From NCBI GenBank assembly GCA_903859375.1, contig CAIOMK010000030.1, positions 5,238 to 69,237 of the forward strand: a DNA stretch of 64,000 bases, written 5' to 3'. Below are positions 9,247 through 64,000 of this stretch, in pieces. A model generated the notes under the pieces. The model did no database searches and had not been told where the DNA came from. It saw only the letters and a list, made by a program, of their open reading frames with translations. Position 1 is the stretch's first letter; each line of letters opens with the position of its first letter. Both the position numbers and the translations under genes were made by a program. Origin of the DNA: Candidatus Moraniibacteriota bacterium (lineage in GTDB: Bacteria > Patescibacteriota > Minisyncoccia > Moranbacterales > UBA1568).

Positions 9247-9257
9247 CCCGCTTCGCC

Positions 9258-20192: not shown

Positions 20193-20217
20193 ATGACCGT
20201 TGAAAATGATGTCGTGA

Positions 20218-38405: not shown

Positions 38406-38414
38406 ATGTTTTCA

Positions 38415-40073: not shown

Positions 40074-40076
40074 TTC

Positions 40077-41729: not shown

Positions 41730-41741
41730 ATCTTCGAACGT

Positions 41742-45016: not shown

Positions 45017-45017
45017 T

Positions 45018-47165: not shown

Positions 47166-47176
47166 GTGAGATATGG

Positions 47177-48982
47177 TTATTCGGCACCGTCGATTCGGAT
47201 AGCGTTCGCATTGTCGTCCGTGATACCGAACACATCCTTCCAAAAAACTCGGTCGGTGTTGGTCTTCGCCTTGTTGAATTTATATTCCTCCACGATACGG
47301 TTCGGGAAGTTCAATTCATACACCATCAGCTGTCCGAACTGTTTCGAATCGATGGCGGTGATGTCGGTCCCGAATTTCTTGGTCACGGGAGCGAGTCCGT
47401 TCTTGGCCGGCGTGACCGCAAAGAACTGCGCGTCGGCATCGGTCTTGTTCGTCATCGTTGCCGATCTCAGGCTCGCATCATGCTTCGAGTAGAACAGGAA
47501 TTCGATCGGCCTCACATGCTCCGGCTTCACATAATAGTACAATGTCGACCCTTCCTTGTGGCGCGCGTACATCCAATCGGTCACTCCTTTCAGCTGTCCC
47601 AGGGTAACCCCGTCCTTCGCTTTCAGGATCAAGGTCCGTTTCACAGTGAAATCGCTCTTCTGAGACTTCGCCTGCTCTTTGAACCATGCGTACGTCCCAT
47701 AGGTGTTCCATCCCACAATACCCGCTGTGAGGAGGAGTGCGATCGCGATGGCATGCGTGCGTTTCAGCTTCTCATCCAGATATTCGAAGACGAGTCCGAG
47801 CAGTATGAACGGGACCGCGAACACCACGATATAGAACCGCGGCCGGAGCTGGAACGCGACCGGCACCGTCAGTATCGTAAACACCGCCACCCAGGCGATG
47901 ATCAGGACGAGGAAGTCCTGTTGCGTGTCCGTGAGCGTTTTTTTCCTCAGATTGCGGAATATGAGGACGGCGCCGGCAAGAAATATGAGCGCCGTGACGG
48001 AAAGCGCCGGCAATTCAGCGGTCATCGAACCGCCATAGCACTGGGATGTCGTCACGAGGCAGTAATACTTGGCATTCTCCGTCACCGTCTTCACGAGCTT
48101 GTCGGCAAACGGCTTTTTCTCAGCCTTCGATCCGAGCGCCTCGATGAAATTCTTGGTGTTCTGTCCGTTCTTATAGTATTCGCTGATGAACACCGGCGTA
48201 TAGAAGAACGAGAACACGAGCAGTGCGATTCCGGAATACAGCGCGATCTTTTTGAGCGTTTCTTTCTTCACGCATGCGACAATCGACTCCTTCTTCCAGA
48301 GTCGGAAATGCGTGATAAACAACAGTCCGGAAATACCAACGAGACTGAAAAATCCGAAAAAGTGCAGCTGCGAGCCGATCGTAATACCGGTCGCCCACAT
48401 GATCAGCCACCATTTCCTACGTCTCCCGTCCGGCTCGTTCAGGAATCGGAGCAAGCCGTAGAAACTGAGCAACAAGAAGAATTGGAGCGAATTCGGATTC
48501 CACGCGAATCGCGAATACTGGATGATGATGAACGAGAACGCATACATCGCCGTTATGAGCAGAGCGTTCCGTTTGGAGAAGTACAGACCGGCGAGGAGGA
48601 ATACCAGCGGTATCGCGAGTATGGAAAACAGTAGATCAGGGTAGGCGTAGACATACGGCTCCGTCGAATTGAACAACACTCCGGACGCGTATTGGAAATA
48701 ATAGAATATCGGCCCGAGGCGCAGAAACCCGTGTTTGAGAGCCACAGCACCGGCGCGAGCACCGAGCAAAGGCAAATATTGCGGCCCGTTCAAGACGGCA
48801 TTGCTGATAAGGAGCGCGTCCCGGCTTTGGTCCATCTTGAAATAGAGCCAGTCGTCGAATGTGTAGGTGCGCACGAATATCGCCGCGAGGAGGATGGCCA
48901 GGAGCGCCAACCACACCGCATTTTTGCTGATGAATTTTTTCAGGTTCTGCATATGTTCGTTACTACTCTTCGAGACTGTCAT
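47177..48982 (-). CDS. GT-C ArnT/PMT-like glycosyltransferase, paralog G
   Basis: 601 aa. FVRTYTFDDWLYFKMDQSRDALLI signature. Confidence 0.7.
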   Translation of the reverse strand: MTVSKSSNEHMQNLKKFISKNAVWLALLAILLAAIFVRTYTFDDWLYFKMDQSRDALLISNAVLNGPQYLPLLGARAGAVALKHGFLRLGPIFYYFQYASGVLFNSTEPYVYAYPDLLFSILAIPLVFLLAGLYFSKRNALLITAMYAFSFIIIQYSRFAWNPNSLQFFLLLSFYGLLRFLNEPDGRRRKWWLIMWATGITIGSQLHFFGFFSLVGISGLLFITHFRLWKKESIVACVKKETLKKIALYSGIALLVFSFFYTPVFISEYYKNGQNTKNFIEALGSKAEKKPFADKLVKTVTENAKYYCLVTTSQCYGGSMTAELPALSVTALIFLAGAVLIFRNLRKKTLTDTQQDFLVLIIAWVAVFTILTVPVAFQLRPRFYIVVFAVPFILLGLVFEYLDEKLKRTHAIAIALLLTAGIVGWNTYGTYAWFKEQAKSQKSDFTVKRTLILKAKDGVTLGQLKGVTDWMYARHKEGSTLYYYVKPEHVRPIEFLFYSKHDASLRSATMTNKTDADAQFFAVTPAKNGLAPVTKKFGTDITAIDSKQFGQLMVYELNFPNRIVEEYKFNKAKTNTDRVFWKDVFGITDDNANAIRIDGAE

Positions 48983-49200
48983 AATAATGACGTATTATCA
49001 CAGTTTTTGGCTTATTTGAGAGGACTTTTTATTTTTTTTTCGGTATATGCCCGTACCGACTAAAAACGCCTCTTCCAAACGGAATTATACCTGTAAACAA
49101 CCCCCTTGCGCAAGCCACCGAAGCCGGTCCGAAACTCCATAAAACGTTATTTTTATGCTACTATACGAATATTATATTCTAATCGACGAGACCAAACCGT

Positions 49201-51045
49201 ATGTGTCGTATACTTCAAAAATACACCGTTCATTTCATCATCTTCATAGTTCTCGCGCTCAACCTCTTTCTCAGCCTTTCCCGACTCGGTACCTATTCCG
49301 CGGTCGACGAACCGTACTGGACCTACGGTCGCACGTCCAAGTTCTGGACCGCCGTCGATCAACATAAGTGGAAATCGACCAATATCAACGACAAGCCGGG
49401 TATCACGGTGGCCCTCTTGTCAGGTTTCGGTCTGCTGAAATACGACCCGATGCAGTACGAGCATATCAGAGGCGAGATCAAAACAGATGCGCAACGGGCG
49501 GATATCGACTCGATCAATTTCTTTTTCCGACTACCGATTTTCCTCTTCTGCACCTTCATGCTTCCGCTCTTTTATTTTTTCCTCCGTAAACTGTTCAGCA
49601 AGACGACGGCGCTCATCGGGTTCGTCTTCATCGGTCTCTCGCCGATCCTACTCGGTATCTCACTCATCATCAATCCGGACTCGCTTCTCTGGATATTCCT
49701 CCCGCTTTCCCTCCTCGCCTACCTCACCTACCAAAAGAAGCAAAAAACGGGTTATCTGATCGCGACCAGCGTCCTCCTCGGACTTTCGCTTTTGACGAAG
49801 TATGTCGCGAACATACTCTATATCTTCTTTTTCATCCTCCCGTTCCTCGAATATGTCTTCGCGGAAAAAAAGCCAGAGCTGAAAGGATATCTGATTAAAT
49901 CATCCAAAGACTATCTCGTCATCGCCACCGTCTCGATGGCGACCTACTATCTCCTGTACCCCGCCGCATGGGCACATCTGAACGTGCTTCTCGAGGGGAC
50001 GTTCCTCAGCAAAGCCTTCGTGAAAGTCTGGCCCGTCTTCGTCGGCATCATCGCCCTGATGGCCGCCGACATATATCTGTTCAAGAACCGTCTCACGCAA
50101 CCGCTCCTCGACGTCCTGTCGCGGTACCGGACCGTCCTCTCGACGGCGCTCATATCCGTCTTCATTATTCTCATCGCCGTCACGATGGCAGACACCTATC
50201 TGGGAATGAAACCATTCGACCTCGAGGCGATACTCGCTTCTCCGAAAGGCATAGGCATAAGCGGGAGCGGACTTCCGGCCGCCATCGCCGGAGCATTCCT
50301 TGCGAACACATACAGTCTCATTTTCGGAATGGATCCGATCGTCTTCATTTTCCTCATACTCGGACTGTTCTCCGTACCGTTTTCGAAACAGACGTATTCA
50401 TGGGAGAAGAAAACCACGATCTATTTCGTCTTGTTCATCGTCCTCTATTATTCCGCTTCCACGTTCAACGACGTGATCGCGACGATCCGGTACCAGATAA
50501 TCCTCTATCCGCTCGCGTTCATCATCGCCGCCATCGGCGCCACACGGCTTCTGTCATGTGAACGGGTGCGCCGGCACGTCCCATCAATCGCCGCGACGGG
50601 AGCGCTCCTCCTTATCCTCGCGATTCCGTTGTTTCAGGTAAAACCGTTCTATTTCACGTACGCCTCGCCACTTCTTCCCGAACAGTATCTCCTCAACACC
50701 AAGGACATGGGAGACGGGAGCTTCGAGGCCGCCTCCATGCTCAACGCCCTTCCGAACGCACGCGATCTCGTCGTCTGGTCAGACAAGGGAGCGGTCTGTA
50801 CCGAATTCATCGGCACCTGCAATATCGGCTTCAGCAAGAAAGATATAACCGGCAAGAGCTTCGATTATTTCGTCATCTCGACGGGGCGCATCAGCCGATC
50901 GATGAAACTTTCGGGTGCCGTGAACGACATCATCGACTTCAGGAAGCTGTACGATGAGAATACACCATACGAGGCCAGTATCGTCGTCGGTGGCCGTCCG
51001 GACAATTTCGTGAGGGTTATCAAAGCGTCGGCAATCGCCAAATGA
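49201..51045 (+). CDS. GT-C ArnT/PMT-like glycosyltransferase with canonical DE-type loop motif, paralog H
   Basis: 614 aa. AVDEPYWTYGR in the first loop is the classical DE motif of the PMT/ArnT family (DEPYY-like). Multi-TM. Confidence 0.65.
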   Translation: MCRILQKYTVHFIIFIVLALNLFLSLSRLGTYSAVDEPYWTYGRTSKFWTAVDQHKWKSTNINDKPGITVALLSGFGLLKYDPMQYEHIRGEIKTDAQRADIDSINFFFRLPIFLFCTFMLPLFYFFLRKLFSKTTALIGFVFIGLSPILLGISLIINPDSLLWIFLPLSLLAYLTYQKKQKTGYLIATSVLLGLSLLTKYVANILYIFFFILPFLEYVFAEKKPELKGYLIKSSKDYLVIATVSMATYYLLYPAAWAHLNVLLEGTFLSKAFVKVWPVFVGIIALMAADIYLFKNRLTQPLLDVLSRYRTVLSTALISVFIILIAVTMADTYLGMKPFDLEAILASPKGIGISGSGLPAAIAGAFLANTYSLIFGMDPIVFIFLILGLFSVPFSKQTYSWEKKTTIYFVLFIVLYYSASTFNDVIATIRYQIILYPLAFIIAAIGATRLLSCERVRRHVPSIAATGALLLILAIPLFQVKPFYFTYASPLLPEQYLLNTKDMGDGSFEAASMLNALPNARDLVVWSDKGAVCTEFIGTCNIGFSKKDITGKSFDYFVISTGRISRSMKLSGAVNDIIDFRKLYDENTPYEASIVVGGRPDNFVRVIKASAIAK

Positions 51046-52787
51046 CACAACCTATGCCCATCACATCGTTACAAGAGCGACTGCTCCGATATTTCAACGG
51101 GAACCGAAGAGAAATCATCGCCCTCATACTGATACTCTGCATCGGTATTTTCTTGCGCACCTACCACTTTTCAGATTGGCTCCATTTCGAAATGGATCAG
51201 GCCATCGATTACGATCTCGTCTCACCCGCGGTCGACTTCGGTCCCGGTCATCTCCCTCTCCTTGGGCCCAATGTCGGCGGAGGATTGCTTCGTCTCGGCC
51301 CCGCATTCTATTACATGGAATATGTGAGTGCGGTCATCTTCGGCAATACGCCGACCGGACATGCCATGCAGGTATTGATCCTTTCGATACTCTCGCTCCC
51401 GCTGTTCTACATATATTGCCGACGGTTTTTCTCCACAATCGAGTCTCTCGGATTGTTGGCTGTCTTTTCGACCTCAGTCTACCTCGTGATGTATTCGCGT
51501 TTTTCCTGGAGTCCGAATGTCCTGCCGTTCCTGTTCCTCGCATCGTTCTATGCGCTTCTCCGGTCCGTATCCCCCGGCGAGCGCCATCCGGCGAGATGGT
51601 TCCTCACGGCAGTCGTAGCGGTCACCATCACTTCACAGATACACTTCAATTCATTCTTCGTTACCCCGCTTATCGCAGTGGCATTCACGGCGATCAAACG
51701 GCCGCGTTTTCCCCTCAAGGTCTGGCTCGCGGGCCTCGCGATCATCCTCACCCTGTATTCCCCGGTCATTCTCAATGACATCCACAACAACAGGGAGAAT
51801 CTGCATTATCTCCGTGAAAAATTCGACAAGACGAAGCCGGGCAGTCTCGTCATGACGGACACGTTGATCCAGACAGTCGAATATGACGCCTACGAATTCT
51901 TTTTCATCACGACCGGAACCGATCTGATCAACGGCATCAAACTGAAAGACTACGGGTTCTCATGCAAGACGTGCGGCGAAAACATGGGACTGAAAATATT
52001 CTCACTCGCGCTCTTCCTCACCGGCCTGGTGTCTATCGCAATCATGGTATGGAAAGAGCGTGACGCGAAGCGGAAGGACTTCCACATCCTGACGCTCCTC
52101 TGGTGCCTGGTGTCCTTTTATCTCATATATTCCATCGCCGATGGCTACCGGATGTATCCGAGATTTTTTCTTCTGCTCGCGCCGCTTGCGGTCATCCTCT
52201 ACGGGTATATCCTGCATCTCATCCAACCGAAACACGGACGAGTCCGATTCTGGATATTTATCTCAATCATCGTAACACTCGTCACGCTCAATATCCACGC
52301 GATCCTGCCCATATTCGACCAGCTCCGGAACGAATCGTTGTCCAAAGGCATGGAAATCGAGGTCGGTGACATCTTCCCGAATACGAACCGCATCACACTC
52401 GCACAACAGACCGCCATCGTCGACTATATCGTGTCGAAATACCGGGACAACGAATACCCGACGTATCTACAGTCGGAATCGGAGTACGAACCGGCTTTCT
52501 GGGCGCTTCTGGAAAGGCACGGTATCCGATACCGTGACGAGATCCGCGACAGCTCGCTCTATTCCGAAGGAAATTACTTCGATATCCGATATGCGGATGA
52601 TACATTCGATACGGATTCAAAGTACACCGTTCTCGAAACGAAACCGTTCGGTACACTGACAGTGAGGTTCTTCAAACCACTTGATGCGGTCGTCGTGGGA
52701 ACCCGTCAATCCGATTCCGAATACAAACAATCCGAAGTGGTCACCGTCATCTCGAAACTACTCAGATGGGACGAGCTGTTTAGATAA
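51042..52787 (+). CDS. GT-C ArnT/PMT-like glycosyltransferase, paralog I
   Basis: 581 aa. FLRTYHFSDWLHFEMDQAIDYDLV signature. ATGA overlap with paralog H. Confidence 0.7.
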   Translation: MTQPMPITSLQERLLRYFNGNRREIIALILILCIGIFLRTYHFSDWLHFEMDQAIDYDLVSPAVDFGPGHLPLLGPNVGGGLLRLGPAFYYMEYVSAVIFGNTPTGHAMQVLILSILSLPLFYIYCRRFFSTIESLGLLAVFSTSVYLVMYSRFSWSPNVLPFLFLASFYALLRSVSPGERHPARWFLTAVVAVTITSQIHFNSFFVTPLIAVAFTAIKRPRFPLKVWLAGLAIILTLYSPVILNDIHNNRENLHYLREKFDKTKPGSLVMTDTLIQTVEYDAYEFFFITTGTDLINGIKLKDYGFSCKTCGENMGLKIFSLALFLTGLVSIAIMVWKERDAKRKDFHILTLLWCLVSFYLIYSIADGYRMYPRFFLLLAPLAVILYGYILHLIQPKHGRVRFWIFISIIVTLVTLNIHAILPIFDQLRNESLSKGMEIEVGDIFPNTNRITLAQQTAIVDYIVSKYRDNEYPTYLQSESEYEPAFWALLERHGIRYRDEIRDSSLYSEGNYFDIRYADDTFDTDSKYTVLETKPFGTLTVRFFKPLDAVVVGTRQSDSEYKQSEVVTVISKLLRWDELFR

Positions 52788-54517: not shown

Positions 54518-55741
54518 ATGAAAAGTCTTATTCCGTACAAAAGACAGGCGGCCTTTGTCGCACTCATCGTTTTCGCCTTCGTGGTCTGGATCGCCGTCAT
54601 CGTGCTCGGTGACAAGAGTTATGTCGACGAAGGGACGCACGCACGGCAGATCCAACGGTTTTTCAAGGGCAACTATTCGATGCTGGACGACCTGACCAAT
54701 ATCCCCGGTTATCACGTGACCGTGGCAACCATCGAAAAAATAGTTCATCCGAACGAGAAGTATCCCCCGCTTGCGGAATCCAGATCGGTCAGTCTCGCCT
54801 TGTCAGCCACCTCTCTGCTGTTGTTTTATCTCATCTCCAAAAAAATCGGCATAGGCGATCCGAAAATGCGGACCCTTCAATACGCATTTTTTCCGATAAC
54901 ATTTCTCTATTTCCCCCTCGTCTACACGGACATATTCTCACTCGCGTTGCTACTTGCCGCGTTCCTTCCGATCCTCTACCGCAAATACACGCTTTCCGCG
55001 GTCATATCGCTTCTCTGTCTTGCGGTCAGACAGGATGCCATCGTCTGGGTCGGTTTTTTCTGGCTGTTCGCCTTTGTCTCGGAATACGGATTCGTTCTCT
55101 CCATTCGGAATATTTCCCGCCATTTCAGGAACACGATCGGCTACGTGGCGGTATTGATCCTCTTTCTGTCCTTTGTCCTGTTCAACGGTGGCATAGCGAT
55201 CGGTGACAAGGAAAGTCACGTGGTCGGACTGTACTCGGGTGGCATATATTTCTTTTTGGCAACGGTCGGATTCCTGTTCCTTCCCACCCTCGTCACCTTT
55301 TTCAAAACCGCCGATTGGAACCGACTGAAAGGATATCTCACATACATATTGCCTATCGGTACCGTCCTAGGCTTGTCGTTCGTTCTATTTCCTCCGGCGT
55401 TACACAAGTACAATCTCGACGCCCACTTCATACGCAACCTCGTGTTGGAGCAGGCATATACACGATATTGGTGGCTTTATGCCGTTTCGATCGTCCTCGG
55501 TTTTTCGGCGATATACGTCATGAAAATTCAGGGGCGCTTCATCGCGCTTCTCCCGATCATCGTCCTCAGCCTGATACCGTCATTCCTGATCGAACAGCGA
55601 TATTTCATCGTTCCGCTCGTTTTTCTCCTGCTGTTCAGGACCGAATCCACAAAGCATACCGAGCGGGCCCTCACCGTCTTTTTTCTCTCCCTGTCGCTCT
55701 CACTGGTATACATGTTGCTTCGGATGGACTTGTTCTTCTAG
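54518..55741 (+). CDS. DIE2/ALG10-family-like GT-C glycosyltransferase (lipid-linked alpha-1,2-glucosyltransferase homolog)
   Basis: 407 aa, about 10-12 TM helices. First-loop motif YVDEGTHARQIQRFFKGNYS...LTNIPGYH parallels the eukaryotic Alg10 Y-x-DE-x-F-H-x-x-Q-A-Q...G...TTPPGLY block. Confidence 0.5.
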   Translation: MKSLIPYKRQAAFVALIVFAFVVWIAVIVLGDKSYVDEGTHARQIQRFFKGNYSMLDDLTNIPGYHVTVATIEKIVHPNEKYPPLAESRSVSLALSATSLLLFYLISKKIGIGDPKMRTLQYAFFPITFLYFPLVYTDIFSLALLLAAFLPILYRKYTLSAVISLLCLAVRQDAIVWVGFFWLFAFVSEYGFVLSIRNISRHFRNTIGYVAVLILFLSFVLFNGGIAIGDKESHVVGLYSGGIYFFLATVGFLFLPTLVTFFKTADWNRLKGYLTYILPIGTVLGLSFVLFPPALHKYNLDAHFIRNLVLEQAYTRYWWLYAVSIVLGFSAIYVMKIQGRFIALLPIIVLSLIPSFLIEQRYFIVPLVFLLLFRTESTKHTERALTVFFLSLSLSLVYMLLRMDLFF

Positions 55742-56685
55742 TCTCCGGAGGTCATCCGGCTTTTCAGATACATCGGAAGGGCCGTGAAGCTGACGAACAT
55801 CTGCACGATCCTGATGACGATAGATACCGCTATCACCGCCGAAGCGTCGACACCGAAATATCCGAAGAATGTCACGTACGCCCATTCCTGGACGCCGATA
55901 TTGTTGATGCTTATTGGGGCTGCCGAGACGATGCTGATGAGGAATATGACGGACAGGTAATCGAGTATGCCCACGTGGATACCGAGCGCCTGGAACATGA
56001 CGTAGTTCTGCAGAGCCAGACCGACCAGACTGAACGATACCGACAGAATCATCGCGCGTGCGAATACCCCCTTGTGTTCGTAGTATTCGTGCAGTGCGGA
56101 CAGGAATTCCAGGATCTTTTTCGGAATATGTCGCGAAAAACGATCCCAGAACGAGAACTTCATCACGTAGCCGAGGCTCGCGACCCCGATCAGACACAAC
56201 AGTATGCCGATCGTGATATACGAAAGCACGGCGTGTCCGATCACGGTGCGCCAATTGAAAATCGCAAAGAGTACAGAGAGAACCATCGCTCCGATCAATC
56301 CCGTCAACCGATCCATGACCACACTCGCGGCGGCATCCGGGAAACGCCCGCTTCGTCTGCCGATCTGATATGCCCGGTAGGTGTCCCCTCCTATGAAGGA
56401 AGGGAAGAAATTATTGATGAACGATCCGGTCAGATACAAACCGAATGCTTCCGGAAGCGAAATTTCCAATCCTTTGAACTTGGCCAACACCCGCCATTTG
56501 TAGGCGGAAAGAGTCATACCGCAAAGCAACACCGCCACATAGAGTGCGATGTGACCGATCGACAGTCGGGACAGGTACGTTCCGACCTCGGTCCACTCCA
56601 CGCGCAAGACGAGCAGATACAGGAGGATCGCGCTGACGATCAGTTTGAACGAGAATGACAGTACTTTCTTCTTGTCCATAGTCAT
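55738..56685 (-). CDS. MprF-TM-like (lysylphosphatidylglycerol synthase TM region / UPF0104) flippase-like membrane protein
   Basis: 315 aa, 8 TM helices. Conserved FINNFFPSFIGGDTYRAYQIGRRSG block typical of the LPG_synthase_TM family. No C-terminal aminoacyl-transferase domain. Confidence 0.6.
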   Translation of the reverse strand: MTMDKKKVLSFSFKLIVSAILLYLLVLRVEWTEVGTYLSRLSIGHIALYVAVLLCGMTLSAYKWRVLAKFKGLEISLPEAFGLYLTGSFINNFFPSFIGGDTYRAYQIGRRSGRFPDAAASVVMDRLTGLIGAMVLSVLFAIFNWRTVIGHAVLSYITIGILLCLIGVASLGYVMKFSFWDRFSRHIPKKILEFLSALHEYYEHKGVFARAMILSVSFSLVGLALQNYVMFQALGIHVGILDYLSVIFLISIVSAAPISINNIGVQEWAYVTFFGYFGVDASAVIAVSIVIRIVQMFVSFTALPMYLKSRMTSGD

Positions 56686-58601
56686 GATGCGACTGAGGCG
56701 TTATGCGAATCATCGTCGAAAAAAACGAGGAACCACTGCTCCAACATGATGAGCGTCCAGAGTTGCTGCGCGTGACTGACGCCCGTCTTACAGTGCTCGT
56801 CGAGCAACCGTTTCACTTCTTCCCTACGGAAGATATTCCGACTCATGGCGACGTCCGACAGCAGCAGATCATAGGCATACGTCTTGAGTTCCCCACGCAA
56901 CCACACATCGACCGGCACACCGAATCCCATCTTCTTCCGATACAGGATATTTTTCGGAATGATCTCTTCCAGTGCTTTCTTGAGTATGTGTTTTTTGTCG
57001 TTCGAGCCATTGATTTTGAGATCGTTCGGTATCTTCGCCGTCAATTCGAGGAATTCATGATCCAAGAACGGACTGCGCGATTCCAACGAGACGGCCATCG
57101 TGTCTATATCCGTCTTCGCCATCAGATCATCCGGCAAGTACGTCATGAAATCGGCATAGAGCATCTGGTCGAGCGGATCCTCGGAACCGGACTGGGTGAA
57201 ATGTCTCGAAACGTTGAGGTATGAATCCTTGTGTGCCATTTTCTCCAGGAAACCGTCTGTATACATCCGTTCTTTGGCGTCATTCGAAAAGATGCAGATA
57301 TAATTCACGTACCGATACGCGTACGGTTCGGCCATCGTTTTTGCGAAGCGGTAGGCGCGGTCAAAAAACGTGTTCCGTATAATACCGGAAACAATCCATA
57401 ATATCGGCTTCACCACGAAGCGGTTCAGTATCCGCAGGCTCTCATACCGGAGGGAGAATTTCATGATGGCATGACGCTGGTACCCCGCGAAGTTCTCGTC
57501 CCCACCGTCCCCGTTGAGCGCGACGGTCACGAAATCACGCGTCATCTTGCTCACATAATACGTCGGCAAAGCGCTCTTGTCCGCATACGGTTCCTCGAAA
57601 TGATGCGCAAGGAGCGGCACCATCCCTATGGCATCGGATTTGACGATGAATTCCTTGTGATCCGTACCGAACAGTTCCGAGATCTGCTTGGCGTAAGCGA
57701 GCTCGTTGTATTTTTCTTCCTCGAACCCGATGGTGTAAGTCTTGACCGGAGTGTCACTGAGTTTCGTCATCAGCGCGACGACCGCACTCGAATCGATACC
57801 GCCGGAAAGGAACGCACCCACCGGCACATCTGAAATCATACGGAGGCGGACAGATTCCTCCAATTTTTCCAGGATGCGTTTCTTCCACTCGTCCTCCGAC
57901 AAGTCGAGTTTTTCGGAATAATCCAGTTTCCAATACCGTTCATTCTCGACCTTTTTCGTTTTCAGGTCGATGAACAGAAAATGTGCCGGTTCGAGCTTCC
58001 TGATATCTTTGAAACCGGTCAAAGGGGCCGGACAGTACTGGAGCGTCAGATAATGATGTATCGCCTCGTAGTCGGGAGCCTTCTCGTACTCCGGCTGTGT
58101 CAGGATCGACTTCAGCTCGGACGCGAACATGAACACGTCGTCGTCGATATAATACTTGAACGGTTTCTTGCCGACCCGGTCCCGTGCGCAGAAAATGGTC
58201 CGGTCGTGCTCGTCGTAGATCGCGAACGCAAACATGCCACGGAGATGTCGCAGGCATTTTTTCCCGTATTTGTAGTACAGCGCCAAGATGACTTCCGTAT
58301 CGGATTTCGAAGCGAACGAATACCCCTCTTTCTCGAGCATCTCACGCTTCTCCCGAAAATTGTAGATTTCGCCGTTGAAGACGATCTTGTACCGACTAAG
58401 ATACCCCATCGGCTGGTGTCCGAGAGGCGAAAGGTCGATAATCGAGAGTCTCCTATGCCCGAGTCCGACTTTCCGGTCGGGTGAGACATAGACACCGGTG
58501 TCATCAGGTCCCCGATGCGTGATGGCATCGTTCATCTTTTTGACGTCTTTCGCGGTGACTTCGCCGTCTTTGAGAAATATCTTACCGGTGATTCCACACA
58601 T
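56682..58601 (-). CDS. asnB: asparagine synthase (glutamine-hydrolysing)-family amidotransferase
   Basis: 639 aa. N-terminal MCGITG (class II GATase nucleophile Cys2) and PP-loop AFLSGGIDSS. 4-nt overlap with the downstream gene. Confidence 0.85.
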   Translation of the reverse strand: MCGITGKIFLKDGEVTAKDVKKMNDAITHRGPDDTGVYVSPDRKVGLGHRRLSIIDLSPLGHQPMGYLSRYKIVFNGEIYNFREKREMLEKEGYSFASKSDTEVILALYYKYGKKCLRHLRGMFAFAIYDEHDRTIFCARDRVGKKPFKYYIDDDVFMFASELKSILTQPEYEKAPDYEAIHHYLTLQYCPAPLTGFKDIRKLEPAHFLFIDLKTKKVENERYWKLDYSEKLDLSEDEWKKRILEKLEESVRLRMISDVPVGAFLSGGIDSSAVVALMTKLSDTPVKTYTIGFEEEKYNELAYAKQISELFGTDHKEFIVKSDAIGMVPLLAHHFEEPYADKSALPTYYVSKMTRDFVTVALNGDGGDENFAGYQRHAIMKFSLRYESLRILNRFVVKPILWIVSGIIRNTFFDRAYRFAKTMAEPYAYRYVNYICIFSNDAKERMYTDGFLEKMAHKDSYLNVSRHFTQSGSEDPLDQMLYADFMTYLPDDLMAKTDIDTMAVSLESRSPFLDHEFLELTAKIPNDLKINGSNDKKHILKKALEEIIPKNILYRKKMGFGVPVDVWLRGELKTYAYDLLLSDVAMSRNIFRREEVKRLLDEHCKTGVSHAQQLWTLIMLEQWFLVFFDDDSHNASVAS

Positions 58602-58671: not shown

Positions 58672-59616
58672 TTATTCGACGTTCCTTCTGCGTACGACAT
58701 ACATCGGACGACCTATGACCTCCTTATGGATATTCGCGACATAGATTGCCAACAACCCGATGGACATGAGCAGTATACCGACCAGAAACAGCAACAGTAT
58801 CGCGAGATTCTCGGAATCGGAAAAGGTCGACGCGAACTCCGAACGAAAAAAGTATTTTCCCAGGAAGATATACAGCCCGGAAGCACCCGCGAAGAGCGTT
58901 ATGAATATGCCGAGAAAACCAGCGAGTTTGAGAGGCATCAGGCTCAGAGATATGAAACTGTCGATTGCGAGCCGGAACAGCCGGATGAAACTGTAGCTGG
59001 CCGTGCCGAACAGACGTTCGTTGGCGTCAAAATGGATGAAATCCCGTCGGAACCCGAGCCAATCGATGAGCGCCCTCGTCATACGGCTCTTTTCCGTGAA
59101 CCGGTTGAACTCGTTCACGACGGCCTTGTCGATGAGTCTGAAGTCGGTCGCATTCGGGACGACGTGCACCTCGGCGATCCTGTTGATGATATGATAGAAC
59201 AGCTTCGATCCCATCTTCTTGATCAGTCCCTCACTACGGTTCTTGTTGCGAACCCCGATGACGACGTCGAACCCGCTCTCCCACCGTCGTATGAATTCCG
59301 GTATGAGTCCGACCGGATGCTGGAGGTCTGCATCAATCATGATACAGGCGTCGGCCGTCGATGCGTTGATACCCGCGGTGGTCGCGACCTCTTTCCCGAA
59401 ATTCCTCGAAAAATCGATATACCGGACCGCCGTGTCGACGGTGGCCAGCTTCATTATTTCGCCGATCGTGTCGTCGGTACTCCCATCGTTCACGAACAGG
59501 ATCTGAAACGAATACGTGCCCGAAAACGGCGCGGACACTTCTTTGAGCGCGTCATACACCGGTCGGATGTTCTTCTCCTCGTTACAGGCGGGAATGATGA
59601 TGAGGATCGATTTCAT
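58672..59616 (-). CDS. polyprenyl-phosphate glycosyltransferase (GT2; Dpm1/ArnC/GtrB-like), second copy
   Basis: IIIPACNEE, FVNDGSTDDT, IMIDADLQH (DxD) and two C-terminal TM helices. Confidence 0.75.
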   Translation of the reverse strand: MKSILIIIPACNEEKNIRPVYDALKEVSAPFSGTYSFQILFVNDGSTDDTIGEIMKLATVDTAVRYIDFSRNFGKEVATTAGINASTADACIMIDADLQHPVGLIPEFIRRWESGFDVVIGVRNKNRSEGLIKKMGSKLFYHIINRIAEVHVVPNATDFRLIDKAVVNEFNRFTEKSRMTRALIDWLGFRRDFIHFDANERLFGTASYSFIRLFRLAIDSFISLSLMPLKLAGFLGIFITLFAGASGLYIFLGKYFFRSEFASTFSDSENLAILLLFLVGILLMSIGLLAIYVANIHKEVIGRPMYVVRRRNVE

Positions 59617-59721: not shown

Positions 59722-60678
59722 TTATGGGCCGTCCATCCCGTAGGTCTTTTTCTCACGGAAGAAGAACGGCGCACCGACGAGACTGACGAGAATCTGTATG
59801 AAACGGACGAGCAACGCGACGGCGAGCGCCGACTCCGGCCGGATGCCAATGAGCGGAAAGAACGTATAGTATGCCCATTCCTTGAATCCGATGTTGTTGA
59901 TCGATACCGGCAGACTCGAGACGAGACTGATCAAGAATACCGTCGCGAGATACGGGAAGATCGGCACATGCTCACCGAGCGCATAAAAGAGCACGAGATT
60001 GAACAGACCGACCCCGACGATCGCGAATGCCGTCGCAAGCGCGAAGTTTTCACGCAGAAAAGTCCATTTCGCGTACCGGTCTATCTCCTTGAAAAATTTC
60101 CTCAACCGGCCGGGCAACCGATCGAACAGGCTTTGGCAACGCGGATGAGCATATCCGTATGTGAGCGCCACATTCACGAGCATGAACAAGAACAATCCGA
60201 TACCGAACCACGCAAAGAGCGGTTTCGCGAAAATATGATCGTAACCGAGAAAGCCGAACACGAAAAAAAGGATGATGGTCGTCCACAATCCGATGAAACG
60301 CGTGAACATGACCGTCGAGATTGCCGCAGGATAGCGTTTCTCCGACTTCCCGAGGATATAGCTCTGATACGCGTCACCGCCGAAAAATGACGGGAGAAAA
60401 TTGTTCAGGAAGAGTCCGGCGAAATAGTATTCCGTCGCATTTCGGAATGTCATGGAGAACTTCTTGAACTGCGCCGCACGCCACCACCGCTCGATACACA
60501 TGAACAAACCGATGACATACAGCAGGAGTGCGAGCAACAACAGTGGCAACGAGGCCTGCGCGACCTCGGACCATATCGGCGCCCAATCGACATTCCGGAC
60601 GAGAAGAGAAATCAATGTGACCGCCATGACGGTCTTGAACACGAAAAATAATTTTTTACTTAGGTTTGTTTTCTCCAC
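59722..60678 (-). CDS. MprF-TM-like flippase-like membrane protein, second copy
   Basis: 318 aa, 8 TM helices. FLNNFLPSFFGGDAYQSYILGKSE block, paralogous to the 55738-56685 gene. Confidence 0.55.
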   Translation of the reverse strand: MEKTNLSKKLFFVFKTVMAVTLISLLVRNVDWAPIWSEVAQASLPLLLLALLLYVIGLFMCIERWWRAAQFKKFSMTFRNATEYYFAGLFLNNFLPSFFGGDAYQSYILGKSEKRYPAAISTVMFTRFIGLWTTIILFFVFGFLGYDHIFAKPLFAWFGIGLFLFMLVNVALTYGYAHPRCQSLFDRLPGRLRKFFKEIDRYAKWTFLRENFALATAFAIVGVGLFNLVLFYALGEHVPIFPYLATVFLISLVSSLPVSINNIGFKEWAYYTFFPLIGIRPESALAVALLVRFIQILVSLVGAPFFFREKKTYGMDGP

Positions 60679-60699: not shown

Positions 60700-61842
60700 T
60701 TACGATATGCTCCGACGATATTCTTCCACGTATTTCTCCGCCACGGCGCGCCAGCTCATGGCCTCCGCGCGGACACGGCTCGCGTCACCCATACGGATCC
60801 GTAGTCCGGGGTCGGCGACGAGCGTACCGAGTTTCTCCGCGAGATCTTCGGCCGATCCTGTGTCCACGAAAAACCCGTTCTCCCCGTCTTTCACCAACTC
60901 CTGAGTCCCACCGGTGACCGTCGCCACGATAGGAAGTCCAGATGATATCGCTTCGAGCACGGTGTTGCTCATGCCTTCGTTGAGCGACGGGAGACAGAAG
61001 ATGTCCGCCCCACGATAGACGTCCGGCAAATCCCCATGTGTGATTAGACCGGCGAACTCCACGCGGGAGGTCACGTCGACCTCCTTCGCAAGCGCTTCCA
61101 GGTTCGGCCGTTCGCCACCTCCGCCGACGATGACCAATCGTGCCGTTTTCGGCAGAAGTGCCATGGCACGTATCATAAATCTGATACCTTTTCGCGGAGT
61201 GAGGCGGGATACGATCAATATGCGGACACTGTCGGCCACGGATTTCCGGCTACCCGGTGAAAATTCTTCCGTATCGACCCCGTTCGGTATGACTGGGATA
61301 TCCCGTTTCGAATCCGTCTTGTATGCGAGGTCACGCAGTCCCGTACTATTGGACACGACCCGTCGTGCCCGACGCCAGATGAGTCGGACGACCGGTCGGA
61401 GTACGGCATACAACGCGGTGAAGCGCTCGCTATATCCGGGCACATCCGCCCCACGGAGCGAGACGATATATGGCAGACCGTATTCGATCCGAAGCGCGAG
61501 TGCGAGGAATCCACACGGCACCGTGAAAAAGGCGTGTACAAGGTCGAAATTCCCTTCCGTCCGAATCAGTTTCCGTGAGAAAAAATATGCTTTCCACGAA
61601 TATGTGAGCAGGTTGTTGCGCGATTGATAGTGGAGATTCTTCGGATCCTTTCCGATAGGCAGACGATGGATGACGATGCTGTCTCCTATCGTCTCGCGGG
61701 AGTAGTCCCCGCCCACAGCCGATGTGACCAGATGGACTTCGAGGTCCGCCACCTTCGCGTACTCACGGAGAAGATACGCCGTGGCGTTTCCTGCCCCGCC
61801 GCCAAGCGGTGGATATTCATAATTTAAAAAGAGGATTTTCAT
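60700..61842 (-). CDS. GT4-family glycosyltransferase
   Basis: YPPLGGGAGNATAYL near the N-terminus. C-terminal NEGMSNTVLEAISSGLPIVAT (EX7E-like) motif. Confidence 0.75.
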   Translation of the reverse strand: MKILFLNYEYPPLGGGAGNATAYLLREYAKVADLEVHLVTSAVGGDYSRETIGDSIVIHRLPIGKDPKNLHYQSRNNLLTYSWKAYFFSRKLIRTEGNFDLVHAFFTVPCGFLALALRIEYGLPYIVSLRGADVPGYSERFTALYAVLRPVVRLIWRRARRVVSNSTGLRDLAYKTDSKRDIPVIPNGVDTEEFSPGSRKSVADSVRILIVSRLTPRKGIRFMIRAMALLPKTARLVIVGGGGERPNLEALAKEVDVTSRVEFAGLITHGDLPDVYRGADIFCLPSLNEGMSNTVLEAISSGLPIVATVTGGTQELVKDGENGFFVDTGSAEDLAEKLGTLVADPGLRIRMGDASRVRAEAMSWRAVAEKYVEEYRRSIS

Positions 61843-61843
61843 A

Positions 61844-63182: not shown

Positions 63183-64000
63183 CTATGAAGTGATAACCTC
63201 CCTGATGTTGTAATTCATTTTCCCCTGAACCTTGTAGTAGTTCTTCAGCATGATATCGGCCAAGAGTCCGAACACGAACAACTGGATACCGACGAGCACG
63301 AAGAACACACCGACCAACGGCCAATTTCTGGTAGCGATCGCCTGGCCCTGATATTTCTCTATCGCCATCCATACCAGGACAAGGAAACCCGTTGCCGCAA
63401 AGACGATACCCGTACCGCCGAACAGATGCAACGGCCGGTTGGAATATTTGCGCCAGAACCAGATCGAGATCATGTCCACGAATCCCTTCATCCCCCGCTT
63501 CCAATTGTATTTCGTCACGCCCGACACCCGCGGATGATGACTCACTTTGACTTCGCCGACGCTGTACCCCTGCATTTCCAATATCGCCGGAATAAAACGG
63601 TGCATCTCGCCGAACAGATCCAGATCCTCGAAACAAATCCGCTTATATGCCTTCAGCGAACAACCGCTGTCATGGATCTTGTCCTGTATCAGGACCTTGC
63701 GCAAAAGATTGGCCGTGCGCGAAAAAATCTTTTTTCCGAGACTGTCCTTTCGCTTGAAGCGCCAACCGGTGACCACATCGAAGCCTTCATCCATTTTTTC
63801 CAACAAAAGTCCGATATCTGCCGGATCGTTCTGGAGATCGCCGTCCATCATGACGATTACTTCGCCTTTCGATTGCTTGATTCCGGCATCGAAGGAGGCC
63901 GTCTGACCGAAATTTTTCCGAAACCGTATCAGCGTAAGCGGGGAAAGACCGACACAATTTCCTACTGTGGCATCCGTAGAACCGTCATCCACGAAAATGA
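63183..64000 (-). CDS. polyprenyl-phosphate glycosyltransferase (GT2; Dpm1/ArnC/GtrB-like), third copy, N-terminus cut by window edge
   Basis: The reading frame stays open to position 64000 (..IFVDDGSTD). MMDGDLQND (DxD) and two C-terminal TM helices. Partial gene. Confidence 0.7.
   Translation of the reverse strand, partial: IFVDDGSTDATVGNCVGLSPLTLIRFRKNFGQTASFDAGIKQSKGEVIVMMDGDLQNDPADIGLLLEKMDEGFDVVTGWRFKRKDSLGKKIFSRTANLLRKVLIQDKIHDSGCSLKAYKRICFEDLDLFGEMHRFIPAILEMQGYSVGEVKVSHHPRVSGVTKYNWKRGMKGFVDMISIWFWRKYSNRPLHLFGGTGIVFAATGFLVLVWMAIEKYQGQAIATRNWPLVGVFFVLVGIQLFVFGLLADIMLKNYYKVQGKMNYNIREVITS

What the first reader, a model, noticed from the sequence alone, without database searches (positions are those of the whole stretch)
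54518..55741. ALG10/DIE2-like lipid-linked glucosyltransferase homolog in a bacterial glycan island
The 407-aa polytopic protein has a first-loop block Y-V-DE-G-T-H-A-R-Q-I-Q-R-F-F-K-G...L-T-N-I-P-G-Y. This is very close to the Alg10 consensus Y-x-DE-I-F-H-x-P-Q-A-Q-x-Y-x-x-G...I-T-T-P-P-G-L-Y. Alg10 adds the terminal alpha-1,2-glucose to the eukaryotic N-glycan precursor from Dol-P-Glc. Bacterial members of this family are essentially uncharacterised. It lies directly downstream of the GH28 and the GT-C array, and near Dpm1-like synthases that could supply Pren-P-Glc. This suggests a capping glucosylation step.
Basis: partly seen in the sequence, partly recalled or inferred. Interest (0 to 1): 0.6.

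Follow-up and report, generated by a model that had tools for sequence, protein, structure and literature searches.

The report
Bacterial ALG10-family membrane glycosyltransferase
This gene from an uncultivated ultra-small (CPR/Patescibacteria) bacterium encodes a true relative of ALG10, the eukaryotic ER enzyme that adds the last glucose to the N-glycan precursor; it most likely adds a lipid-carried sugar to a cell-surface glycan, showing that a family usually described as eukaryote-only also exists in prokaryotes.

Summary
ORF 54518-55741(+) encodes a 407-aa polytopic protein carrying the quoted loop-1 motif. It hits Pfam PF04922 (DIE2/ALG10) at 129 bits (cutoff 27) and hits no other family. 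An HMM built only from eukaryotic ALG10 scores it 109 bits. About 20 positions, including D37-E38, YTD136-138, RQ171-172 and E359/R361/Y362, are at least 90% conserved in 182 prokaryotic and 107 eukaryotic sequences. The AlphaFold model (pLDDT 96) is a 13-helix GT-C fold.

The gene is the last in a GT-C/GT-C/GH28 operon. Nearby are three polyprenyl-phosphate-sugar synthase-type GT2s, two flippase-like proteins, UDP-glucose dehydrogenase and an AsnB-type amidotransferase. The module is conserved in Moraniibacteriota relatives.

Homologues occur sparsely across Patescibacteria, Peribacteria, cultured Motilimonas, Nitrospirales, Planctomycetes and a DPANN archaeon. Dpm1-type GT2 and other GT-C genes are the only recurrent neighbours.

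It is most likely an extracytoplasmic, polyprenyl-phosphate-sugar-dependent glycosyltransferase. The donor sugar (glucose or a uronic acid) and the acceptor remain undetermined, so "capping glucosylation" is unproven. It is a new member of a known family, and of moderate interest because the literature calls ALG10 eukaryote-specific.

The parts
54518..55741 (+). ALG10/DIE2-family (GT59-like) GT-C glycosyltransferase, 407 aa, ~13 TM helices, N-terminus in
   Evidence: ORF. PF04922 at 129 bits. Eukaryote-only ALG10 HMM at 109 bits. AF2 model pLDDT 95.9. All credible PDB fold matches are GT-C enzymes.
54626..54631 (+). Codons for D37-E38, the candidate catalytic base pair at the start of the first helix of extracytoplasmic loop 1
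   Evidence: Sequence. D and E are present in 176 of 182 prokaryotic and 106 of 107 eukaryotic sequences, and the exceptions are gaps. Helix 38-49 follows TM1 (4-30) in the model. GT-C_A enzymes carry the catalytic base in the first helix of luminal loop 1 (PMC13503287).
52849..54486 (+). GH28 glycoside hydrolase with an N-terminal hydrophobic anchor or signal, immediately upstream in the same operon
   Evidence: PF00295 at 100.6 bits. The closest NCBIfam is alpha-D-galacturonidase BT4155 at 330 bits, below the equivalog cutoff. Adjacency is conserved in L001, L002, L040 and L041.
49201..52787 (+). Two PMT_2-type GT-C genes (49201-51045 and 51042-52787, 4-bp overlap) heading the same transcription unit
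   Evidence: PF13231/PF02366. Syntenic in L001, L002 and L040.
36792..48982 (-). Array of six PMT_2-type GT-C paralogues plus one DUF6311 membrane protein (45018-47243)
   Evidence: DUF6311 comes from the precomputed Pfam hit. GT-C genes flank the ALG10-like gene in all 13 Moraniibacteriota/Paceibacteria-clade loci. hhalign shows the array family is distinct from the ALG10-like family, probability 17%.
34554..36020 (+). Wzx/MurJ-type (MOP) flippase bordering the GT-C array
   Evidence: PF01943/PF13440/PF03023. Orthologues border the array in L004, L006, L007 and L008.
55738..56685 (-). PF03706 'flippase-like' membrane protein, convergent with the ALG10-like gene and overlapping its stop by 4 bp; candidate polyprenyl-P-sugar flippase
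   Evidence: PF03706 at 138 bits. TIGR00374 flippase-like domain at 84 bits against a cutoff of 43. Conserved position in L001, L002 and L040. The flippase role is inferred.
56682..58601 (-). AsnB-type glutamine amidotransferase
   Evidence: PF00733 at 333 bits. The closest NCBIfam is the XrtA/PEP-CTERM EPS amidotransferase at 604 bits, below cutoff. Conserved in L001, L002 and L040.
58672..59616 (-). GtrB/PgfS-type GT2, a candidate polyprenyl-phosphate-hexose synthase
   Evidence: Full-length match to Synechocystis GtrB 5EKP, E=6.7e-64, then ArnC and Dol-P-Man synthase. The closest NCBIfam is PgfS at 216 bits, below cutoff.
59722..60678 (-). Second PF03706 flippase-like membrane protein
   Evidence: TIGR00374 at 64 bits against a cutoff of 43.
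60700..63169 (-). GT4 glycosyltransferase (60700-61842) and UDP-glucose 6-dehydrogenase (61844-63169)
   Evidence: The UGDH is closest to TuaD at 463 bits. Conserved in L002, L008, L009, L012 and L040.
63183..64000 (-). ArnC/PgfS-type GT2 (313 aa in the full contig; runs off the window end), a second candidate polyprenyl-P-sugar synthase
   Evidence: Orthologues score 479-571 bits in L002, L009 and L012.
23167..24120 (+). AglJ/Dol-P-Man-synthase-type GT2, a third candidate polyprenyl-P-sugar synthase, 31 kb upstream
   Evidence: Best PDB match is Pyrococcus DPMS 5MLZ, E=2.7e-14. Closest NCBIfam families are AglJ at 122 bits, PpgS at 94 and Dol-P-hexose transferase at 67.

Best explanation
The gene encodes a genuine prokaryotic member of the ALG10/DIE2 (CAZy GT59, Pfam PF04922) family of GT-C-fold membrane glycosyltransferases, in a Moraniibacteriota-like (CPR/Patescibacteria) bacterium. 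The proposed mechanism has four steps. (1) A GtrB/ArnC/Dpm1-type GT2 on the cytoplasmic face charges polyprenyl phosphate with a sugar from a UDP-sugar. (2) The lipid-linked sugar is flipped, with the two adjacent PF03706 'flippase-like' proteins as candidates. (3) On the outer face, the ALG10-like enzyme uses the D37-E38 pair in the first helix of extracytoplasmic loop 1 as catalytic base. (4) It transfers the sugar, with inversion, onto an envelope glycan or lipid-linked oligosaccharide that is also worked on by the neighbouring PMT_2-type GT-C enzymes and trimmed or remodelled by the co-transcribed GH28. Shown here: family membership, fold, conservation of about 20 active-site-candidate positions, and conserved gene context. 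Inferred: donor class, topology, flippase role and operon. Unknown: which sugar is transferred (glucose by family precedent, a hexuronic acid by context) and what the acceptor is. The acceptor cannot be the eukaryotic Glc2Man9GlcNAc2-PP-dolichol.
For: Family: PF04922 at 129 bits against a cutoff of 27, and no other Pfam family. A eukaryote-only ALG10 HMM scores the protein 109 bits and hits all 182 collected prokaryotic members. The alignment with eukaryotic ALG10 is collinear over the full length. D37, E38, H41, Q44, P63, R89, P126, Y136-T137-D138, R171-Q172, W177, N223, G229, H296, E359, R361 and Y362 are at least 90% conserved in both 182 prokaryotic and 107 eukaryotic sequences.

Fold: AF2 pLDDT 95.9 and pTM 0.94. 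All credible Foldseek PDB matches are GT-C enzymes: ALG12, Pmt1/2, STT3, ArnT, ALG9, AglB, Emb, AftB, PglB and PimE. The 13-helix N-in parse puts every conserved motif in outside loops and the K/R-rich loops inside, matching the published 13-TMD ALG10 model (PMC6801728).

Distinct from neighbours: hhalign probability is 17% against the PMT_2 array.

Donor class: three polyprenyl-P-sugar-synthase-type GT2s are in the window, along with two flippase-like proteins above the NCBIfam cutoff. In 17 distant loci the only recurrent neighbour families are GT2 (7 of 58 proteins) and PMT/PMT_2 (4 of 58). The three neighbouring GT2s that were checked hit Dol-P-Man synthase, ArnC and GtrB best. L036 carries a complete GtrA + GT2 + GT-C set beside the gene.

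Conservation: the module GT-C, GT-C, GH28 and ALG10-like, converging on flippase-like, AsnB, flippase-like, GT4, UGDH and GT2, is retained at 53-57% protein identity. The three-component logic (Und-P-sugar synthase, flippase, GT-C) is established for bacteria (PMC11127046).
Against: No prokaryotic family member has been characterised, and no ALG10 structure exists, so activity, donor and acceptor all rest on homology and context. In several lineages the gene has no glycan-related neighbours: Minisyncoccus and Motilimonas, P0049, P0149 and P0023. The context signal is therefore clade-specific. Foldseek E-values to solved GT-Cs are weak (3e-3 and above, TM 0.35-0.46). The libraries that would hold ALG10 AlphaFold models were unavailable. 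Promoter and terminator scans are at background level, so the operon is inferred from spacing only. PF03706 proteins have not been shown to flip polyprenyl-P-sugars.
Confidence: 0.78

Rival explanations
1. One reading: the enzyme is functionally ALG10-like. It would transfer glucose from polyprenyl-P-glucose, made by the GtrB-like GT2, in alpha linkage as a terminal 'cap' on the glycan built by the GT-C array.
For: Every characterised member of the family is a Dol-P-Glc-dependent alpha-1,2-glucosyltransferase (PMC10859629). The GT2 at 58672-59616 matches Synechocystis GtrB, a Und-P-Glc synthase family, at E=6.7e-64. The gene is last in its operon. Active-site-candidate residues are shared with eukaryotic ALG10.
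Against: Identity to eukaryotic ALG10 is only 21-27%. GT-C families can mix donor sugars (my own knowledge: GT83 includes both ArnT and the Rhizobium GalA transferases). The GtrB-like GT2 is absent from the 53%-identical orthologous locus, whereas the UGDH and ArnC-like GT2 pair is retained. Positions 65, 299 and 307 differ systematically between the domains. Nothing identifies the step as terminal.
Confidence: 0.28
2. The enzyme transfers a hexuronic acid (GalA or GlcA, possibly later amidated) from polyprenyl-P-uronate onto a teichuronic-acid-like wall polymer. This would be analogous to the Rhizobium RgtE (GT2) / RgtA-D (GT-C) system.
For: The conserved module contains UDP-glucose 6-dehydrogenase (closest to TuaD), an ArnC-type GT2 next to it, an AsnB-type amidotransferase closest to EPS amidotransferases, and a co-transcribed GH28 closest to alpha-D-galacturonidase. 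A second UGDH lies at 21592-22896 and a TagA/WecG-type transferase at 6804-7538. An inverting GT-C acting on a beta-linked polyprenyl-P-sugar would give the alpha linkage that GH28 enzymes cleave (inference).
Against: No UDP-GlcA 4-epimerase was found in the window. None of the NCBIfam matches reach equivalog cutoffs. GH28 adjacency is confined to the closest relatives: L001, L002, L008 and L040. Any of the eight PMT_2 GT-Cs could be the uronosyl transferase instead. The Rgt precedent is recalled from memory and was not checked here.
Confidence: 0.25
3. It glycosylates proteins directly, acting as a PMT/PgfM-like O-glycosyltransferase on pilins or surface proteins rather than on a glycan or lipid-linked oligosaccharide.
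For: The neighbours are PMT/PMT_2-family proteins. The closest NCBIfam for the GtrB-like GT2 is PgfS, of the S. mutans protein O-glycosylation machinery. Two Wzy_C-domain proteins are in the window, and this domain occurs in O-oligosaccharyltransferases (my own knowledge).
Against: All characterised ALG10 enzymes act on a lipid-linked oligosaccharide. No candidate acceptor protein is conserved next to the gene. The PgfS match is far below cutoff, at 216 against 500 bits.
Confidence: 0.1
4. It is not a bacterial enzyme at all: either eukaryotic contamination or recent transfer from a eukaryote, or a decayed non-catalytic membrane protein.
For: Published surveys describe ALG10 as eukaryote-specific (PMC4973528; bioRxiv 2024.10.30.621208).
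Against: The gene sits among bacterial genes (PriA, Fmt, GltX, CtpA) with matching GC content. The identical protein is recorded on about 102 contigs. Orthologues are syntenic in 13 Patescibacteria genomes, and homologues occur in complete genomes of Minisyncoccus and Motilimonas. At least 137 clusters at 50% identity are of the short prokaryote type. All catalytic-candidate residues are intact.
Confidence: 0.02

Closest known systems
Eukaryotic ALG10/DIE2 (Dol-P-Glc:Glc2Man9GlcNAc2-PP-Dol alpha-1,2-glucosyltransferase; CAZy GT59; Pfam PF04922)
   Same: Same Pfam family, well above threshold. Full-length collinear alignment. About 20 shared near-invariant positions, including the loop-1 DE..H..Q motif, YTD, RQ..W, N.G...GD...H and E.RY. 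Same predicted 13-TM N-in topology and GT-C fold.
   Different: Only 21-27% identical. About 60 residues shorter (median 410 against 472 aa), lacking the eukaryotic insertion after W177 and the C-terminal extension. Positions 65, 299 and 307 differ by domain. The host has no ER and no Glc2Man9GlcNAc2 acceptor. The lipid carrier would be a bacterial polyprenol rather than dolichol. Donor sugar is unverified.
Bacterial three-component extracytoplasmic glycosylation systems (GtrA/GtrB/Gtr*; CsbB/GtcA/YfhO; PgfS/PgfM; ORF15/14/12 with GT136)
   Same: Same logic and same types of parts in the locus: GtrB-type GT2 polyprenyl-P-sugar synthase(s), candidate flippase(s), and GT-C transferase(s) acting outside the membrane.
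   Different: The GT-C here belongs to the ALG10/GT59 family, not to any GT-C family used by described bacterial systems. The window has PF03706 flippase-like proteins rather than GtrA/SMR or MATE flippases, although L036 does have a GtrA-family protein. The locus holds about 10 GT-C genes rather than one.
PMT_2/ArnT-type GT-C enzymes (Pfam PF13231/PF02366; GT39/GT83), the neighbours in the array
   Same: GT-C_A-type fold, polyprenyl-P-sugar donors, extracytoplasmic catalysis, and a loop-1 acidic catalytic residue. ArnT and Pmt1/2 are among the best structural matches.
   Different: No sequence-profile relationship beyond a 57-column patch: hhalign probability 17%. No PMT or PMT_2 Pfam hit even at E<=10. 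It is shorter and has no large soluble domain.
ER-luminal ALG3/ALG9/ALG12/ALG6/ALG8 GT-C enzymes
   Same: GT-C fold. ALG12 and ALG9 are among the top Foldseek matches. The concept is shared: successive GT-Cs elaborate a flipped lipid-linked glycan.
   Different: Different CAZy and Pfam families. No ALG6/ALG8 (GT57) or ALG3 (GT58) homologue was detected in the window. A GT22 (PF03901) gene sits near an ALG10-like gene only in the unrelated locus L035.

Membership tests
DIE2/ALG10 family (Pfam PF04922; CAZy GT59) | Scores above the curated gathering threshold of the family HMM, with no better-scoring competing family | tested here: met
   129.2 bits against a cutoff of 27, E=3.1e-37. It is the only Pfam hit at E<=10. 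All 17 close homologues carry a precomputed PF04922 hit.
DIE2/ALG10 family (Pfam PF04922; CAZy GT59) | Homology to bona fide eukaryotic ALG10 that does not depend on prokaryotic sequences in the model, and that runs the full length | tested here: met
   An HMM built from 9 eukaryotic ALG10 sequences only gives 109 bits, E=2.5e-33. The alignment is collinear from residue 34 to the C-terminus. The best single Pfam stretch covers profile positions 4-164 only, with two further stretches.
DIE2/ALG10 family (Pfam PF04922; CAZy GT59) | Conserved loop motifs of ALG10 (loop-1 DE..H..Q, ..PG, YTD, RQ..W, N.G...GD...H, E.RY) | tested here: met
   All are present in the window protein. Each is at least 90% conserved in 182 prokaryotic and 107 eukaryotic sequences, except D230 and H234 at about 75-80% in prokaryotes.
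DIE2/ALG10 family (Pfam PF04922; CAZy GT59) | 13-TM topology with N-terminus cytoplasmic and conserved motifs in luminal/extracytoplasmic loops (model of PMC6801728) | tested here: met
   DSSP helices of the pLDDT-96 model, combined with loop charge distribution, give 13 TM segments and N-in, with the motifs in alternate (outside) loops. This is a prediction only, with no experimental topology.
DIE2/ALG10 family (Pfam PF04922; CAZy GT59) | Structural superposition on an ALG10 structure or model | not testable with these tools
DIE2/ALG10 family (Pfam PF04922; CAZy GT59) | Catalytic activity: alpha-1,2-glucosyl transfer from Dol-P-Glc to Glc2Man9GlcNAc2-PP-Dol | not testable with these tools
   This needs biochemistry. 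The eukaryotic acceptor is not expected in a bacterium, and no ALG6/ALG8/ALG3 homologues are in the window. The protein is therefore filed as a family member, not as a functional equivalent.
GT-C fold superfamily, class GT-C_A | Polytopic membrane protein with a conserved N-terminal TM module, whose first extracytoplasmic loop has two helices, the first carrying an acidic catalytic base (PMC13503287) | tested here: met
   TM1 spans 4-30. Loop-1 helices span 38-49 (beginning right after D37-E38) and 64-76, followed by TM2 at 85-110. The top Foldseek hits are all GT-C enzymes at probability 0.97-1.00, though with modest TM-scores of 0.35-0.46.
Bacterial three-component extracytoplasmic glycosylation system | Co-located polyprenyl-P-sugar synthase (GT2), flippase and GT-C | tested here: met
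   The window holds GT2s at 58672, 63183 and 23167, flippase-like proteins at 55738 and 59722, and the GT-C at 54518. L036 holds GtrA_DPMS_TM, two GT2s, PMT_2 genes and the ALG10-like gene. Which synthase and flippase serve which GT-C is unknown.
Bacterial three-component extracytoplasmic glycosylation system | Demonstrated post-assembly modification of a defined glycan | not testable with these tools
   No glycan structure is known for any host organism.
PMT_2 / ArnT-like GT-C (PF13231, PF02366) | Profile match to the family | tested here: not met
   No PF13231 or PF02366 hit at E<=10. hhalign against the window's own PMT_2 paralogues gives probability 17%.

The most novel reading that the evidence does not exclude
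The ALG10-like enzyme may be one step of a prokaryotic counterpart of the ER-luminal phase of N-glycan precursor assembly. In this reading, a lipid-linked oligosaccharide is built in the cytoplasm (GT4/GT2 genes) and flipped by the MOP/Wzx flippase bordering the array. It is then elaborated sugar by sugar outside the membrane by about 10 GT-C enzymes fed by several polyprenyl-P-sugars, and finally transferred by a Wzy_C-type ligase or oligosaccharyltransferase. Eukaryotic ALG10 would then descend from this widespread prokaryotic family rather than being a eukaryotic invention. Cultured carriers (Motilimonas, Minisyncoccus) would make the first GT59 mechanism and the origin question directly testable.
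Probability: 0.15. Interest if true: 0.8.

Novelty: new member of a known kind. Interest (0 to 1): 0.48.

Why it matters
ALG10 and the other ER-luminal ALG glycosyltransferases are described in evolutionary surveys as unique to eukaryotes, or as arising at the origin of eukaryotes (PMC4973528; bioRxiv 2024.10.30.621208). This window holds a prokaryotic protein that shares about 20 near-invariant positions and the predicted topology with eukaryotic ALG10. It belongs to a family of at least 137 clusters at 50% identity, spread over several bacterial phyla and a DPANN archaeon. That bears on the origin of the N-glycosylation pathway.

GT59 is also among the ER-luminal ALG glycosyltransferase families without a solved structure. 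A compact 400-aa bacterial homologue from culturable hosts would be a practical route to one.

For CPR biology, it adds to the picture of an unusually GT-C-rich system for decorating the envelope outside the membrane. These organisms depend on surface contact with their hosts.

Standard annotation already tags these proteins with PF04922, and function remains inferred, so this is an incremental finding rather than a new kind of system.

Tried and rejected
1. NCBIfam and PDB sequence searches with the protein returned only noise.
3. The first genome scan, using the 60-sequence alignment, failed because no block was conserved enough. It was repeated with a closer 15-sequence alignment.
4. Contexts in the cultured hosts Minisyncoccus and Motilimonas are uninformative: Lcl_C and ankyrin in one, and AraC, a solute-binding protein, an acyltransferase_3, IS21 and an unknown 432-aa protein in the other.
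5. I suspected that the ~420-435-aa Pfam-less proteins next to the gene in many distant loci were a hidden conserved partner. All-against-all phmmer shows they are unrelated to each other, so this was rejected.
6. Fusion partners of the 770-890-aa fused homologues have no Pfam match and no similarity to any window protein, so they give no functional hint.
7. Promoter and terminator scans are at background level.
8. The idea that the gene is a diverged copy of the adjacent PMT_2 array was rejected by hhalign.
9. Phage- or plasmid-borne seroconversion-module origin was rejected: no relatives in viral contigs, phages or plasmids.
10. The rough NJ tree cannot resolve whether eukaryotes branch within or beside the prokaryotes. 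Midpoint rooting separates them, eukaryote monophyly is only 65/100, and the eukaryote sample is almost all metazoan.
11. The profile search of the 5.8-billion-protein set was swamped by fish ALG10 and added no new prokaryotic names.
12. The count of 705 clusters at E<=1e-10 cannot be read as prokaryotic, because metazoan ALG10s reach 68 bits.
Full report
**1. The observation.** The ORF listing returns one ATG-initiated ORF at 54518-55741(+), 407 aa. D37 and E38 are codons 54626-54631. GC content of the region (0.51) matches the window range of 0.47-0.55. Other genes in the window are typically bacterial: PriA, Fmt, GltX and CtpA.

Pfam gives a single hit, PF04922 DIE2_ALG10, E=3.1e-37, 129.2 bits against a gathering cutoff of 27. 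Nothing else appears even at E<=10. NCBIfam and PDB sequence searches return only noise; NCBI has no model for this family and no ALG10 structure exists. To exclude the possibility that the Pfam hit depends on bacterial sequences in the model, I built an HMM from nine eukaryotic ALG10 sequences only. It scores the window protein 109 bits (E=2.5e-33) and hits all 182 prokaryotic relatives collected. The alignment with eukaryotic ALG10 is collinear over the full length.

Across 182 prokaryotic and 107 eukaryotic sequences, the following are at least 90% conserved in both groups: D37, E38, H41, Q44, P63, R89, P126, Y136, T137, D138, R171, Q172, W177, F219, N223, G225, G229, H296, E359, R361 and Y362. 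Three positions are fixed differently in the two domains: Y65 against L, N299 against L, and N307 against K/R.

The helix list and loop charges give 13 TM helices with the N-terminus inside. K/R-rich short loops fall on one face and every conserved motif falls on the other. This agrees with the published 13-TMD model of ALG10 (PMC6801728). It also agrees with the GT-C_A rule that the catalytic base lies in the first helix of luminal loop 1 (PMC13503287). Here D37-E38 sit immediately before helix 38-49, which follows TM1.

**4. Not a copy of its neighbours.** The window holds eight PMT_2-type GT-C genes (36792-52787) plus a DUF6311 membrane protein. A profile-profile comparison of the ALG10-like family with these paralogues gives only 17% probability over 57 columns. 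The gene is therefore a distinct GT-C family embedded in the array.

**5. Local context.**
- *Same strand, tightly spaced:* GT-C 49201-51045, GT-C 51042-52787, GH28 52849-54486, then the ALG10-like gene.
- *Convergent set:* a PF03706 flippase-like protein (55738-56685), an AsnB-type amidotransferase, a GtrB-type GT2 (58672-59616), a second flippase-like protein, a GT4, UDP-glucose dehydrogenase, and an ArnC/PgfS-type GT2 that runs off the window.
- *GtrB-type GT2:* it matches Synechocystis GtrB 5EKP at E=6.7e-64 over its full length.
- *Third polyprenyl-P-sugar-synthase-type GT2:* at 23167-24120, with best hits to Pyrococcus Dol-P-Man synthase, AglJ and PpgS.
- *Flippase-like proteins:* both pass the NCBIfam TIGR00374 cutoff.
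- *GH28:* closest to alpha-D-galacturonidase BT4155.
- *UGDH:* closest to TuaD.
- *AsnB:* closest to an EPS-associated amidotransferase.
- *Caveat on these three:* all three matches are below equivalog cutoffs.
- *Elsewhere in the window:* a second UGDH, GT4s, two Wzy_C proteins, a Wzx-type flippase, a TagA/WecG-type transferase and a PGA_cap protein.
- *Promoter and terminator scans:* at background level, so the operon is inferred from spacing.

**6. Relatives and their contexts.** The word-indexed search found 17 relatives. The nearest named one is from Candidatus Moraniibacteriota at 57% identity. The exhaustive search of 1.84 billion representatives found 1282 clusters at E<=1e-3 and 137 at E<=1e-30. 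Metazoan ALG10s reach at most 68 bits against the query, so those 137 clusters (median length 410 aa against 472 aa for eukaryotes) are the prokaryote-type subfamily. The remainder is a mixture.

A scan of GTDB species representatives gave 33 loci. They come from Moraniibacteriota, Paceibacteria and other Patescibacteria, including the complete genome of cultured Minisyncoccus archaeiphilus. They also come from Peribacteria, four cultured Motilimonas genomes, Phycisphaeraceae, Elusimicrobia, Gemmatimonadetes, Nitrospirales, Omnitrophica and a Woesearchaeote. NCBI names the Minisyncoccus and Motilimonas proteins 'hypothetical protein', while one JGI/IMG fragment is auto-named 'alpha-1,2-glucosyltransferase'. 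The identical window protein is recorded on about 102 contigs. No relatives occur in phage, plasmid or viral collections.

In all 13 loci of the Moraniibacteriota/Paceibacteria clade, the gene is flanked by 3-9 PMT_2-type GT-C genes. The orthologous loci at 53-57% identity keep the whole module: GT-C, GT-C, GH28 and ALG10-like, converging on flippase-like, AsnB, flippase-like, GT4, UGDH and GT2. L036 adds a GtrA-family flippase and two GT2s.

In 17 non-redundant distant loci, the only recurrent families among the 58 nearest neighbours are GT2 (7) and PMT/PMT_2 (4). The three neighbouring GT2s I checked (two Peribacteria, one Elusimicrobium) hit Dol-P-Man synthase best, followed by ArnC and/or GtrB. 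Other contexts are uninformative.

**7. Mechanism.** The best-supported reading is an extracytoplasmic, inverting GT-C transferase that takes a sugar from a polyprenyl-phosphate carrier. The carrier would be charged by one of the co-located GtrB/ArnC/Dpm1-type GT2s and flipped by a co-located flippase-like protein. The sugar would be added to an envelope glycan that the neighbouring GT-Cs also build and that GH28 may trim. This is the logic of bacterial three-component glycosylation systems (PMC11127046), with a GT59-family enzyme as the GT-C.

- *Shown:* family, fold, residue conservation and conserved context.
- *Inferred:* donor class, sidedness, flippase role and operon.
- *Undetermined:* sugar and acceptor.

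Family precedent favours glucose. The conserved UGDH, ArnC-type GT2, AsnB and GH28 neighbours favour a uronic acid. I rate these two about equally, at roughly 0.25-0.3 each.

**8. Comparison with what is known.** In the membership tests the protein meets the sequence, motif, topology and fold criteria of PF04922/GT59. Catalytic equivalence cannot be tested, and the eukaryotic acceptor cannot exist here. It is therefore a family member but not a functional equivalent of ALG10. It fails membership of PMT_2.

The literature held here contains no description of prokaryotic PF04922 members. Two evolutionary studies state that ALG10 and the other luminal ALG enzymes are eukaryote-specific (PMC4973528; bioRxiv 2024.10.30.621208). 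My rough NJ tree puts the sampled eukaryotes (almost all metazoan) on one long branch, with monophyly at 65/100. Prokaryotic diversity (31% mean identity) is at least as great as that of the eukaryotic sample (43%), but the tree cannot decide the direction of descent.

**9. Verdict.** The 'capping glucosylation' suggestion is plausible but unproven, and it has a serious rival. The finding is a new, uncharacterised prokaryotic member of a known family. Its interest is moderate, because it conflicts with the 'eukaryote-only' description of ALG10 and because cultured carriers make it testable.

Noticed in passing
window 36792-52787: Eight PMT_2-type GT-C paralogues (17-21% identical to each other) plus a 715-741-aa DUF6311 membrane protein (45018-47243) form one contiguous array. 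Related Moraniibacteriota loci carry 3-9 such genes around the ALG10-like gene. This is an unusually high density of GT-C genes for a small genome.
   Followed up: partly
L035 1328-6070: In a prokaryotic metagenome contig (ribosomal protein L17 upstream), an ALG10-like gene lies two genes from a PF03901 Glyco_transf_22 (ALG9/ALG12-type) gene. That makes two 'ER-type' GT-C families side by side.
   Followed up: no
P0051, P0113, P0125, P0149 (N-terminal ~430 aa); P0112, P0159 (N-terminal ~175 aa): Some homologues are fusions. Four share a homologous 6-7-TM N-terminal domain with no Pfam match, possibly another GT-C-like module. Two others share a ~175-aa N-terminal extension. P0126 has a different, unrelated N-terminus.
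   Followed up: partly
L029 9645-12754; L024 9620-13786: Nitrospirales has tandem duplicates of the ALG10-like gene. Elusimicrobia has two copies separated by a GT4, with Dpm1-type GT2 genes adjacent.
   Followed up: partly
L032 6894-8096: A Woesearchaeota (DPANN archaeon) MAG carries a family member that scores as well against the eukaryotic ALG10 HMM (109.5 bits) as the window protein does. The archaeal label rests on MAG binning only.
   Followed up: no
L016 vs L017: A contig labelled Patescibacteria and one labelled Gammaproteobacteria carry near-identical ALG10-like genes and the same gene order. One of the two MAG assignments is probably a binning error.
   Followed up: no
window 55738-56685 and 59722-60678: Two PF03706 (MprF-type 'flippase-like') membrane proteins sit inside the glycan module, and their positions are conserved in relatives. 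They are candidate polyprenyl-P-sugar flippases, a role not established for this family as far as I know.
   Followed up: partly
window 18612-20249 and 32380-33690: Two Wzy_C (O-antigen ligase / O-oligosaccharyltransferase-type) membrane proteins occur in an organism expected to lack LPS. They could be polymerases, ligases or protein O-oligosaccharyltransferases.
   Followed up: no
window 25286-27253, 36108-36662, 45018-47243: These large ORFs inside the glycan island (655, 184 and 741 aa) have no Pfam-A hit in my scans. The third has only a precomputed DUF6311 hit.
   Followed up: no
window 6804-9357: A TagA/WecG-type transferase (6804-7538), a LigT-like 2'-5' RNA ligase (7592-8263) and a PGA_cap (poly-gamma-glutamate capsule-type) protein (8269-9357) lie upstream of the island. 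TagA suggests a Gram-positive-type wall-polymer linkage unit.
   Followed up: no
window 9-1178 and 3431-4744: A PD-(D/E)XK nuclease / DUF2800-like protein and a C39-like peptidase-domain protein lie at the start of the window. Both appear unrelated to the finding.
   Followed up: no
L026 11171-12469 (Motilimonas): A 432-aa protein with no Pfam hit lies 10 bp downstream of the ALG10-like gene in all Motilimonas genomes, so it is probably co-transcribed. It is not homologous to the similarly sized neighbours in other phyla.
   Followed up: partly
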